This document shows, piece after piece, positions 56,183 through 57,088 of a DNA stretch of 64,000 bases. Source of the stretch: Escherichia coli (lineage in GTDB: Bacteria; Pseudomonadota; Gammaproteobacteria; Enterobacterales; Enterobacteriaceae); assembly GCF_036507355.1 (NCBI RefSeq), contig NZ_AP027877.1, one strand, 5' to 3'. A program made the position numbers and the translations under genes. The notes under the pieces were generated by a model. The model worked only from the letters and a program-made list of their open reading frames with translations. It ran no database searches and was not told where the DNA came from. Each line of letters starts with the position of its first letter. Within the stretch, counting starts at the first letter, position 1.

Positions 56183-56545
56183 TGGAGCACCTCAAAAACA
56201 CCATCATACACTAAATCAGTAAGTTGGCAGCATCACCTTCCTTGTTATACACATTACGAAAAATAAGACATTTAAGATCATCAAAAGAGGAAAGTAAATG
56301 TATTGCGTATAAAGGGATAGATTAAATTTATTAAAATTCACGCAGGGAATAATTTATAAAAATATATCATTACAACATATATATTAATTTTATGTTTATT
56401 TCGCAGCCAAACAGGATAAACATCAGTCAGGACAAAGACGTAAAATTTAAGATGAAAGAATATCTGCCGCTTTGATAATCCCAAAGAGCAAAAGCATCCG
56501 ACAGCGAAGTGCCGTTATGTTCTGTGAAAGTGGAGAAGGTAACCG

Positions 56546-56737
56546 CTAACGTTGTACCGGTGATTCGACGGAGAGTGTGGATTGCTGAGCTTCTTTTTTG
56601 CTCTGATGGTGCTGCCAGGCACCGACGGACGAGTAGATAAAACGGCCAAAGAAGAAGATAAAGCTGATGAGCAGTACGATACGGGTCATGCGACTGTTAA
56701 ATCGGTGTCGTTTTCGCATACTGGTTGCCTGACTCAC
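56546..56737 (-). CDS. yfgG: Small membrane protein YfgG
   Basis: 63-aa ORF with one hydrophobic segment; synteny. Confidence 0.8.
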   Translation of the reverse strand: MSQATSMRKRHRFNSRMTRIVLLISFIFFFGRFIYSSVGAWQHHQSKKEAQQSTLSVESPVQR

Positions 56738-57088
56738 AAAAGGTTCCTTGAAGTATGTCCCACGCTGTGGACGGTACTTACATTAAGGCACAACAGGACA
56801 AAATGGTCAATTCTTCGTTATGTAAAAAAGCGTCAGTGGATACATATTTTAATGTTATGGAAGTTAATTTAATTATTTACAATGATGATGTAATAATGAT
56901 GAATTAACATGATAAACGTAATAATTCATTAATCAGGGTTATTTTGTTTGATATATATCAATTGGAACTTTCATATGACACTTAGAATCAATGCTCTCTA
57001 TAGTGATGAATAATCATCATTCGAAGTCAGGTGGGATGCCTGTCTGAATACACCTCCTTCAGGATGTGGGGGATTCTGCTGAGCATCT

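What the first reader, a model, noticed from the sequence alone, without database searches (positions are those of the whole stretch)
56238..57088. AT-rich regulatory region around yfgG, upstream of pdeF
The two intergenic segments flanking the 63-aa yfgG gene are AT-rich with phased A/T tracts. They contain the displaced native yfgH promoter and the pdeF promoter (pdeF encodes an oxygen-responsive c-di-GMP phosphodiesterase). The IS1 insertion lies at the edge of this region, so local regulation may be altered.
Basis: inference. Interest (0 to 1): 0.25.

Follow-up and report, generated by a model that had tools for sequence, protein, structure and literature searches.

The report
Known pdeF/yfgG control region beside IS1
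This AT-rich stretch is the already-characterised control region of the E. coli anaerobic c-di-GMP phosphodiesterase gene pdeF and its small neighbour yfgG; an IS1 element has cut the next operon (yfgHI) off from its own upstream DNA, and the only unreported part is a deeply conserved pdeF mRNA leader.

Summary
The coordinates and gene calls are right. The order is yfgI, yfgH (-), IS1 (55470-56237, 9-bp duplication TTCCTTGTT), yfgG (56546-56737, -) and pdeF (57089, +). Without IS1 the stretch is colinear with K-12 at 99.3%.

Both intergenic segments are strongly AT-rich (GC 31.5% and 34.2%, minima 18%, window mean 52%). The claimed phasing of A/T tracts is not there: no 10-11 bp periodicity beyond shuffles.

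The yfgG-pdeF spacer holds a perfect FNR box (56948-56961) placed correctly before a -10 TAGAAT. This is the published class II FNR promoter of pdeF, and it is FNR-bound in ChIP-seq. It also holds an invariant yfgG promoter (TTGACC-17-TGcCTTAAT) that fits a published start site. Both are conserved across Enterobacteriaceae genera.

The yfgH promoter is only inferred. IS1 sits 3 nt upstream of the yfgH ribosome-binding site, so it can affect yfgHI but probably not pdeF.

Two extras came up. The yfgH 5' end is a recurrent IS1 target, with 7 insertion points in about 30 bp across genomes. The pdeF leader (57022-57091) contains blocks invariant across genera with GGA-loop hairpins, undescribed in Rfam or the papers searched.

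Verdict: ordinary and already known.

The parts
55470..56237 (-). IS1 element (context). insA is at 56182-55907 and insB' at 55988-55485. The transposase reading direction points toward yfgH.
   Evidence: 768 bp, imperfect terminal repeats, absent from K-12. Pfam InsA and DDE_Tnp_IS1 domains. The A6C frameshift motif is seen directly in the sequence at about 55925-55933.
56238..56246 (.). Right copy of the 9-bp target duplication TTCCTTGTT (left copy at 55461-55469). Its complement AACAAGGAA carries the yfgH Shine-Dalgarno AAGGA.
   Evidence: Removing IS1 plus one copy restores colinearity with K-12.
56247..56545 (-). Native yfgG-yfgH intergenic region, now separated from yfgH by IS1. GC is 31%. 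The part proximal to yfgH (about 56247-56340) is conserved in Escherichia and the distal part is variable.
   Evidence: Alignment A4 of six Escherichia lineages; composition.
56270..56298 (-). Candidate yfgHI promoter (inferred only): -35 TTTACT (56298-56293), 17-bp spacer, -10 TTAAAT (56275-56270).
   Evidence: Consensus match inside the conserved block. The stricter scan did not report it. No start-site data were found.
56489..56514 (-). Weak terminator-like hairpin and U-run 32 nt after the yfgG stop codon.
   Evidence: Terminator scan; fold.
56546..56737 (-). yfgG, a 63-aa DUF2633 small membrane protein. K-12 annotates it as a Ni/Co stress response protein.
   Evidence: The Ni/Co tolerance phenotype is reported in PMC6338753.
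56782..56810 (-). yfgG promoter: -35 TTGACC (56810-56805), 17-bp spacer, extended -10 TGcCTTAAT (56790-56782). The start site is near 56774.
   Evidence: Both hexamer blocks are invariant in 10 sequences from 4 named genera plus an unclassified Enterobacteriaceae genome, while the spacer varies (A1). PMC3946193 lists the same hexamers. The published yfgG start site 2627275 (U00096.2) maps to about 56774 (my coordinate conversion).
56820..56858 (.). Two conserved blocks upstream of the yfgG -35: the A-rich ATGTAAAAAAGCGTCAG (56820-56836) and the dyad ACAT-N6-ATGT (56842-56855; a perfect palindrome AACATTAATTAATGTT in Kluyvera). The dyad centre is about -74 from the yfgG start site (56848.5 vs ~56774). 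The binding factor is unknown.
   Evidence: Alignment A1.
56948..56961 (+). FNR box TTGATATATATCAA, an exact match to the consensus.
   Evidence: It is the only match in 64 kb, with 0.09 expected. It is conserved as TTGA[TC]N4[AG]TCAA 140-180 bp upstream of pdeF in all 14 orthologous loci. The FNR ChIP-seq motif has the identical sequence (PMC3688515 supplement).
56983..56988 (+). pdeF -10 hexamer TAGAAT. The start site is inferred near 56996, which puts the FNR box centre at about -41.5.
   Evidence: TAnAAT is invariant in A1 and A3. PMC3718329, citing Lacey 2010, gives this box, this hexamer and the -41.5 position.
56975..57004 (+). Second sigma-70-like match, ATGACA-18-TATAGT (10 of 12). 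It is specific to Escherichia.
   Evidence: Promoter scan. Listed as the yfgF 'constitutive promoter' in PMC3946193. Not conserved in A1.
56996..57088 (+). pdeF 5' leader, about 93 nt. It contains a variable hairpin (GATGA/TCATC, 57004-57017), an invariant block CAGGTGGGATGCCTG (57028-57042), a hairpin CCUCC/GGGGG (57053-57072) with GGA in its loop, and an invariant GAGCATCT (57081-57088) abutting the ATG.
   Evidence: Alignments A1, A3, A5 and A7; folds; covariance model R1; pair counts.
56755..56907 (+). 50-aa ORF that RefSeq annotates as a 'hypothetical protein' (WP_000017552.1). Probably not a gene.
   Evidence: Annotated. No Pfam hit. The ATG is lost in 7 of the 8 non-Escherichia sequences and stop codons appear in all 8, although the DNA blocks are conserved.

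Best explanation
The interval is the ordinary, largely already-characterised control DNA around yfgG in an E. coli chromosome.

(1) The 351-bp yfgG-pdeF spacer is a divergent promoter region.
- pdeF is transcribed from a class II FNR-activated promoter. FNR dimers bind TTGATATATATCAA, centred about 41.5 bp upstream of the start site, and recruit RNA polymerase to a -10 TAGAAT under anoxia.
- yfgG is transcribed in the opposite direction from a good -35 / extended -10 promoter.
- The AT-rich DNA between them is bound by H-NS, which dampens FNR access.

(2) The 299 bp between yfgG and IS1 is the native upstream region of the yfgHI operon. It most likely holds that operon's promoter within the 110 nt proximal to yfgH.

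(3) IS1 inserted 3 nt upstream of the yfgH ribosome-binding site and duplicated it. yfgHI therefore keeps its translation signals. Its transcription must now come from read-through across or out of IS1 (inferred). Control of pdeF and yfgG should be unchanged.
For: Sequence and comparison:
- Gene order matches K-12, and the stretch is 99.3% colinear once IS1 is removed.
- The exact FNR consensus occurs once in 64 kb against 0.09 expected.
- The FNR box and the TAnAAT hexamer keep the same spacing in Escherichia, Enterobacter, Phytobacter, Kluyvera, and in Salmonella-like and Citrobacter loci.
- The yfgG -35 and -10 blocks are invariant across genera.
- The IS1 anatomy and the target duplication covering the Shine-Dalgarno sequence can be read directly.
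- The region proximal to yfgH is conserved in Escherichia.

Literature:
- PMC3718329 describes the FNR box at -41.5 and the TAGAAT hexamer as a class II FNR promoter.
- The PMC3688515 supplement gives an FNR ChIP peak and motif at yfgF/yfgG. It lists values of 0.35 versus 1.68 for wild type versus delta-hns/delta-stpA, and yfgF at 0.23 in a list I read as the fnr-mutant expression ratio (column headers not seen).
- PMC3946193 shows an RpoD SELEX peak with an HNS flag and the same hexamers.
- PMC4447067 shows a sigma-S ChIP peak and a yfgG start site that maps 8 nt downstream of the -10.
Against: - No start-site, ChIP or expression data exist for this strain. All experimental support comes from K-12, which has identical motif sequences.
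- The yfgHI promoter rests only on a 4/6 + 4/6 hexamer match plus within-genus conservation. The stricter promoter scan did not report it.
- Promoter-like matches in the region are no more frequent than in shuffles: 4 found against 4.4 expected.
- The consequence of IS1 for yfgHI is inference only.
Confidence: 0.85

Rival explanations
1. pdeF output is also, or mainly, set after transcription. In this reading the conserved leader is a cis-regulatory RNA. The invariant GGAUGCC (57034-40) pairs with G.GCAUCU (57081-88) and buries the ribosome-binding region. A competing local hairpin (CAGG/CCUG, GGA in its loop), or a GGA-binding protein such as CsrA bound to the two GGA loops, would free it.
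For: - The 15-nt block and the 8-10 nt before the ATG are invariant in the 10 leaders reached through PdeF protein homology. Six more loci reached by protein homology keep the GGATGCCTG core: Salmonella-like and Citrobacter match exactly, while Raoultella, L213 and L215 differ in the 5' arm or loop of the block and L213 has one change before the ATG. These orthologues go down to 46% protein identity and their flanks diverge.
- The two blocks are complementary over 7-10 bp.
- The long-range helix is the MFE or more stable than the local hairpin in 35 of 40 leaders, by 3.6 kcal/mol on average.
- By eye, GGA is present in the second-hairpin region of all 40 leaders in alignment A3. It lies unpaired in a predicted hairpin loop in 31 of 40.
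- The second hairpin shows compensatory changes: 17 cells against 8.2 +/- 2.7 in shuffles.
- Model R1 finds only pdeF leaders, at 53.8 bits or more, against 27 bits or less for chance carriers of the 18-nt pattern.
Against: - The fold is not unusually stable (z = -0.67).
- Both candidate helices for the invariant block never covary, so neither structure is demonstrated.
- The one natural change in the block next to the ATG (U to C in L213) breaks a pair.
- The Citrobacter youngae leader lacks GGA in the second loop.
- No GGA overlaps the Shine-Dalgarno region.
- yfgF is absent from the E. coli CsrA CLIP supplements, though pdeF is barely expressed aerobically.
- 30 of the 40 leaders were retrieved using the block itself as the search pattern, so their invariance in that block and before the ATG is by construction.
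- A DNA-level operator at +33 to +47 would explain the conservation equally well.
Confidence: 0.35
2. The AT-rich segments are architectural, intrinsically curved DNA built from helically phased A-tracts. In this reading the curvature itself is the regulatory feature.
For: The DNA is very AT-rich with many short A/T runs. PMC3946193 and PMC3688515 report H-NS association.
Against: There is no 10-11.5 bp periodicity above shuffles in either segment or its core, and the tract spacings are irregular. H-NS binding needs AT-richness, not phasing (established knowledge).
Confidence: 0.1
3. The IS1 insertion rewires pdeF and/or yfgG expression, for example by breaking an H-NS filament or by supplying promoter activity.
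For: IS elements are known to relieve H-NS silencing, as at bgl (from my own knowledge). IS1 does lie at the edge of an H-NS-flagged region.
Against: - IS1 is 710 bp from the FNR box. yfgG and a terminator-like hairpin lie between them.
- The IS1 transposase genes read away from yfgG and pdeF.
- The pdeF and yfgG promoter elements are intact and identical to those of K-12.
Confidence: 0.08
4. IGR2 encodes the 50-aa protein annotated in RefSeq (56755-56907, +), and that coding sequence explains the conservation.
For: The ORF is annotated as WP_000017552.1 in many E. coli genomes.
Against: There is no Pfam hit. The start codon is lost in 7 of the 8 sequences from other genera and the frame is interrupted by stops in all 8, although the DNA blocks are conserved. 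Those conserved blocks coincide with the yfgG promoter elements.
Confidence: 0.03

Closest known systems
E. coli K-12 yfgF (pdeF) class II FNR-dependent promoter (Lacey, Partridge and Green 2010, as cited in PMC3718329 and PMC3688515)
   Same: The FNR box TTGATATATATCAA, the -10 TAGAAT, their spacing, and the divergent yfgG neighbour are all identical. This is the same locus in another strain.
   Different: Nothing in the promoter itself differs. This strain additionally carries IS1 about 0.7 kb away, on the far side of yfgG.
IS1 insertions next to gene starts (polar insertions, hybrid promoters as at blaTEM-1 and acrEF listed in PMC9330008; IS1's preference for AT-rich targets, from my own knowledge)
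   Same: A complete 768-bp IS1 with a 9-bp duplication has inserted at the border of an AT-rich region, immediately upstream of a gene's ribosome-binding site.
   Different: Only 17 nt separate the IS end from the GTG start, and the best -10-like hexamer would leave no leader. The expected outcome is therefore uncoupling or weak read-through rather than activation. This is inference.
CsrA-controlled leaders of c-di-GMP genes (dgcT/ycdT and dgcZ/ydeH, Jonas 2008, cited in PMC5635695) and CsrA-activated leaders that open a Shine-Dalgarno-sequestering hairpin (ymdA, from my own knowledge)
   Same: Two GGA motifs are presented in hairpin loops 26 nt apart in the leader of a c-di-GMP enzyme gene. 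A predicted helix occludes the translation start region and shares nucleotides with one GGA site.
   Different: No GGA overlaps the Shine-Dalgarno region. No binding or CLIP evidence exists. The structures are not supported by covariation. Membership is not established.
H-NS-dampened FNR sites described in Myers et al. 2013 (PMC3688515)
   Same: yfgF/yfgG appears in that paper's table comparing FNR peaks between wild type and delta-hns/delta-stpA.
   Different: None. It is the same site.

Membership tests
Class II FNR-activated promoter | FNR site matching TTGAT-N4-ATCAA | tested here: met
   Exact match at 56948-56961. It is the only one in 64 kb, with 0.09 expected.
Class II FNR-activated promoter | Site centred near -41.5, overlapping the -35 position, with a -10 hexamer at the correct distance | tested here: met
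   The box centre is at 56954.5 and TAGAAT is at 56983-88, which implies a start near 56996. The spacing is kept in all aligned orthologues. The -41.5 assignment comes from the literature. The start site was not mapped here.
Class II FNR-activated promoter | FNR occupancy and FNR- and anoxia-dependent expression | not testable with these tools
   K-12 data only: an FNR ChIP-seq peak and reduced yfgF in a list from PMC3688515, and anaerobic induction.
Sigma-70 promoter (yfgG) | -35 and -10 hexamers with a 16-18 bp spacer, and a start site 6-8 nt downstream of the -10 | tested here: met
   TTGACC-17-(TGc)CTTAAT is invariant across genera. The published start site maps to about 56774, 8 nt after the hexamer (with my coordinate conversion using a +1978 offset).
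IS1 family insertion sequence | Length of about 768 bp, imperfect terminal inverted repeats of about 23 bp, 9-bp target duplication, insA and insB' with an A6C frameshift site | tested here: met
   RefSeq annotates the identical protein as 'IS1A family transposase, programmed frameshift'.
Curved, phased A-tract DNA | A/T tracts repeated in phase with the helix (10-11 bp) | tested here: not met
   Power at 10-11.5 bp is reached by 71-100% of shuffles.
H-NS-bound AT-rich regulatory DNA | AT content well above the genome mean, and H-NS occupancy | tested here: inconclusive
   AT-richness is met. Occupancy is known only from K-12 literature flags.
CsrA-regulated mRNA leader | At least two GGA motifs, preferably in hairpin loops, 10-63 nt apart | tested here: met
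   GGA at 57034-36 / 57035-37 and at 57063-65 in predicted loops. By eye, the second GGA is present in all 40 leaders of alignment A3 and lies unpaired in a predicted hairpin loop in 31 of 40. It is absent from the loop in one extra Citrobacter leader.
CsrA-regulated mRNA leader | One GGA overlapping the Shine-Dalgarno sequence, or demonstrated CsrA binding or effect | tested here: not met
   No GGA lies within 15 nt of the ATG. yfgF is absent from the CsrA CLIP supplements of PMC5694010 (an aerobic data set, so this is weak evidence).
Any Rfam RNA family (riboswitches, leaders, sRNAs) | A match to a curated covariance model | tested here: not met
   No match with E up to 1 over 54000-59500 on either strand.
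Fur-regulated promoter (considered because of the Ni/Co and Ga phenotypes) | A match to the 19-bp Fur box better than chance | tested here: not met
   The best matches are 11/19 and 12/19, reached by 97% and 64% of shuffles respectively.

The most novel reading that the evidence does not exclude
The pdeF mRNA leader (about 56996-57088) may be an undescribed cis-regulatory RNA conserved across Enterobacteriaceae. An invariant GGAUGCC element would alternate between a local GGA-loop hairpin and a long-range helix that buries the translation start region, possibly switched by CsrA binding to two GGA loops. That would add post-transcriptional control to the FNR-dependent anaerobic c-di-GMP phosphodiesterase.
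Probability: 0.3. Interest if true: 0.5.

Novelty: already known. Interest (0 to 1): 0.25.

Why it matters
As found, it matters little. It confirms that this strain keeps the textbook FNR-driven pdeF promoter and the yfgG promoter intact.

Two side results could be useful.

- The start of yfgH, an outer-membrane-stress lipoprotein gene, is a recurrent IS1 landing site in natural E. coli. Some lineages have lost yfgHI through it, so yfgHI expression is a variable trait between strains.
- The pdeF leader contains sequence more conserved than the protein it precedes. If it is a regulatory RNA or operator, it would link c-di-GMP turnover under anoxia to a second input, with CsrA as the obvious candidate. 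That is directly testable with fusions and compensatory mutations.

Tried and rejected
- **Helical phasing of A/T tracts.** Tested by power spectrum against 1000 shuffles and rejected.
- **Rfam scan of 54000-59500 at E up to 1.** No hits.
- **Fur box**, prompted by the Ni/Co and gallium links. No better than shuffles.
- **ArcA.** Only a chance-level 11/15 match by eye, and yfgF/yfgG/yfgH are absent from the ArcA ChIP supplements of PMC3798270.
- **The 50-aa RefSeq ORF in IGR2.** Not conserved as a reading frame outside Escherichia.
- **A shared leader with the paralogue pdeA.** The K-12 pdeA upstream region lacks the GGATGCC block and has no R1 hit.
- **Selection for IS1 read-through into yfgH.** No orientation bias at the locus: 31 genomes with IS1 in the window's orientation against 35 in reverse.
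- **A hybrid IS1-flank promoter for yfgH.** Only 17 nt of flank precede the start codon, and no usable -10 is present (read).
- **Sigma-E, CpxR, PhoP and RcsB boxes in IGR1.** Inspected by eye only; nothing convincing, so not claimed.
- **Start-site tables.** Conway 2014 holds no supplementary files here, and Thomason 2015 is not held.
- **Other papers not held or not reachable.** Lacey 2010 and Jonas 2008 are not held.
- **Covariation support for either helix of the invariant leader block.** None is possible, because the columns never vary.

Full report
**Anatomy.** The window around the finding reads guaA (+, 52715-54292), yfgI (-, 54385-54924), yfgH (-, 54940-55458), an IS1 element (55470-56237), yfgG (-, 56546-56737), pdeF (+, 57089-59332) and ppx (-). 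Pfam confirms DUF5384 for yfgI, a glycine-zipper domain for yfgH, DUF2633 for yfgG, and the InsA and IS1-transposase domains. The order is that of E. coli K-12. After removing IS1 and one copy of the 9-bp duplication TTCCTTGTT, 1600 bp align to K-12 without gaps at 99.3%. The finding's left edge, 56238, is the first base of the right-hand duplication. On the yfgH strand the duplication reads AACAAGGAA and carries the yfgH Shine-Dalgarno sequence. IS1 therefore sits 3 nt upstream of that sequence, with its transposase genes reading toward yfgH.

**Observation.**
- AT-richness is real and unusual. GC is 0.315 in 56238-56545 and 0.342 in 56738-57088, against 0.518 for the window.
- The 100-bp minima are 0.18. 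These are two of only five places in 64 kb at or below 0.30.
- 'Phased' tracts are not supported. Tract spacing is irregular, and the 10-11.5 bp spectral power is matched by 71-100% of shuffles.

**The yfgG-pdeF spacer, pdeF side.**
- It contains TTGATATATATCAA (56948-56961), an exact FNR consensus. This is the only one in the window, with 0.09 expected.
- The -10 TAGAAT follows at 56983-88. This puts the box centre about 41.5 bp upstream of an inferred start near 56996.
- PMC3718329, citing Lacey et al. 2010, describes exactly this box, this hexamer and this position as a class II FNR promoter.
- The supplement of Myers et al. 2013 lists an FNR ChIP-seq peak and this motif at yfgF/yfgG. It gives values of 0.35 against 1.68 in a wild type versus delta-hns/delta-stpA table, and places yfgF in a list at 0.23. 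I read the last as the expression ratio in an fnr mutant, but I did not see the column headers.
- Shimada et al. 2014 flag the spacer as HNS-associated.
- I fetched pdeF orthologues by protein homology. The box (TTGA[TC]N4[AG]TCAA) and a TAnAAT hexamer keep their spacing in Escherichia, Enterobacter, Phytobacter, Kluyvera, and in Salmonella-like and Citrobacter loci.

**The yfgG-pdeF spacer, yfgG side.**
- TTGACC (56810-05), a 17-bp spacer and TGcCTTAAT (56790-82) are invariant across those genera, while the spacer varies.
- Shimada lists the same hexamers.
- The yfgG start site quoted by Peano et al. 2015 (2627275 in U00096.2) converts to about 56774, 8 nt after the hexamer. The conversion uses a +1978 offset, which I checked against the FNR motif coordinate.
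- Upstream lie a conserved A-rich block and a dyad ACAT-N6-ATGT (56842-55) with no identified binding factor.
- The divergent yfgG-pdeF pair itself is conserved across the family.

**The yfgG-IS1 segment.**
- In K-12 this is the 310-bp yfgG-yfgH spacer. yfgHI is treated as an operon.
- yfgH is nearly silent in LB and strongly induced by outer-membrane damage.
- Among six Escherichia lineages, the 110 nt next to yfgH are well conserved and the rest is not.
- Within the conserved part lies a modest TTTACT-17-TTAAAT (56298-56270, minus strand). I found no start-site data, so the 'displaced native promoter' is a reasonable inference and not a demonstrated fact.
- A weak terminator-like hairpin follows yfgG.
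- Because IS1 lies between this DNA and yfgH, yfgHI transcription must now cross or originate in IS1. The insA promoter at 56230-56203 was picked up by the scan. No usable hybrid promoter can form in the 17 nt of remaining flank.
- The effect on yfgHI is inferred. An effect on pdeF or yfgG is unlikely given the distance and the intact promoters.

**IS1 across genomes.**
- The exact allele in the window is absent from 5,426 complete E. coli genomes. Of 5,421 genomes with a match, 5,382 have the yfgH-5'/IGR1 stretch intact and 34 have it split.
- Across yfgI to the 5' part of pdeF, 31 genomes carry IS1 in the window's orientation and 35 carry it in reverse. At least ten more keep only the right flank.
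- I mapped 13 of these loci. At the yfgH start the junctions fall at 55456-64, 55458, 55461-69 (the window), 55462-70, 56250, about 56252-60 and 56255-63. That is seven positions within about 30 bp of the uninterrupted sequence, in both orientations.
- In strain G3/10 the element is joined to the guaA flank with yfgH and yfgI deleted. In FCI56 it is joined to pheP.
- Other sites hit the yfgH coding region, the yfgG -35 (56808-17, three strains) and the pdeF coding region.
- In a K-12 gallium-evolution experiment, IS5 landed at a position that converts to 56982-85, inside the pdeF -10.
- The lack of orientation bias argues for target preference at the edge of AT-rich DNA rather than selection for read-through.

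**The pdeF leader.** The least AT-rich end of the finding (57022-57091) turned out to be the most conserved.
- Conservation:
  - In the ten leaders first reached through protein homology, the blocks CAGGT[G/T]GGATGCCTG and G[A/G]GCATCTATG are invariant.
  - Six more homology-derived leaders, down to 46% protein identity, keep the GGATGCCTG core. Raoultella, L213 and L215 differ in the 5' arm or loop of the first block, and L213 has one change before the ATG.
  - Thirty more leaders came from a metagenome scan with the first block as the search pattern, and were kept if they also had an FNR-like box upstream or the ATCTATG context. Their invariance in the first block and before the ATG is therefore by construction.
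- Structure:
  - Between the blocks is a C-rich/G-rich hairpin. GGA is visible in that region in all 40 aligned leaders and lies unpaired in a predicted loop in 31 of 40. One extra Citrobacter leader lacks it in the loop.
  - The two invariant blocks are complementary (GGAUGCC with G.GCAUCU). This helix buries positions -8 to -1 and is the MFE, or beats the alternative local hairpin, in 35 of 40 leaders.
- Specificity: a covariance model of the core separates pdeF leaders (53.8 bits or more) from chance carriers of the pattern (27 bits or less). It finds nothing else in the window or near the paralogue pdeA.
- Against a structural reading:
  - The fold is not unusually stable (z = -0.67).
  - The invariant columns cannot covary.
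  - Only the middle hairpin shows compensatory change: 17 cells against 8.2 +/- 2.7 in shuffles, while the overall covariation score is unremarkable.
- Rfam has no match. The searchable papers mention no pdeF or yfgF leader. yfgF is absent from an aerobic CsrA CLIP supplement.
- I therefore report a conserved, undescribed element whose level of action, RNA or DNA, is open. A CsrA-type or structural translational switch is the most interesting reading that the evidence does not exclude.

**Verdict.** The finding correctly located a real regulatory region, but that region is already characterised. One descriptive claim, the phasing, fails, and one interpretive claim, the yfgH promoter, is unproven. 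Interest is low. The IS1 hot spot and the conserved leader are modest leads.

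Noticed in passing
window 55456-55469 and 56247-56263 (adjacent in IS1-free genomes); loci L003, L004, L005, L217, L218, L219: The 30 bp around the yfgH ribosome-binding site and start codon is a recurrent IS1 target. Seven distinct junction positions, in both orientations, occur in different E. coli strains. Two of them are associated with deletion of yfgHI (G3/10) or with a rearrangement that joins the site to pheP (FCI56).
   Followed up: partly
window 56808-56817 equivalent; L002, L006, L007: Three strains (DP051, VTB96816v, CEA106S) carry IS1 on the yfgG -35 hexamer in the yfgG-pdeF spacer. Other strains carry IS1 inside pdeF (57167-76, 57623-31) or inside yfgH (55329-37, E. coli C and BS74R-D).
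   Followed up: partly
window 56982-56985: A published gallium-resistance evolution line of K-12 acquired an IS5 insertion at a position that converts to the TTAG inside the pdeF -10 hexamer. It reached a frequency of 0.5 (PMC6928379).
   Followed up: no
window 56755-56907 (+): RefSeq/PGAP annotates a 50-aa 'hypothetical protein' (WP_000017552.1) over the yfgG promoter. The reading frame is not conserved outside Escherichia, so the annotation is probably spurious.
   Followed up: yes
window 56842-56855 and 56820-36: A conserved dyad ACAT-N6-ATGT (a perfect 16-bp palindrome in Kluyvera) and an A-rich block lie just upstream of the yfgG -35. No known factor could be assigned. This could be relevant to the Ni/Co phenotype of yfgG.
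   Followed up: partly
L211, L214, L215, L216: In several orthologous loci (Salmonella-like, Enterobacter-like, Raoultella and one unknown) pdeF is called as two ORFs, MASE1 and EAL separately. The 442-aa Salmonella-like fragment is indexed in 313 blocks of the assembly collection. This suggests frequent disruption of pdeF. However, my N-terminal query favoured truncated proteins.
   Followed up: no
window 10928-11035, 26140-26310, 44541-44822: These are the three other segments of the window with 100-bp GC at or below 0.30 (minimum 0.17 at 44541-44822). They were not examined.
   Followed up: no
L210 7840-7900 (K-12 pdeA upstream): The leader of the paralogue pdeA has a faint resemblance (TGCCTGAAAACCCC) to the pdeF leader segment GCCTGTCTGAA-ACCC. 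It lacks the GGATGCC block and the GGA loops.
   Followed up: partly
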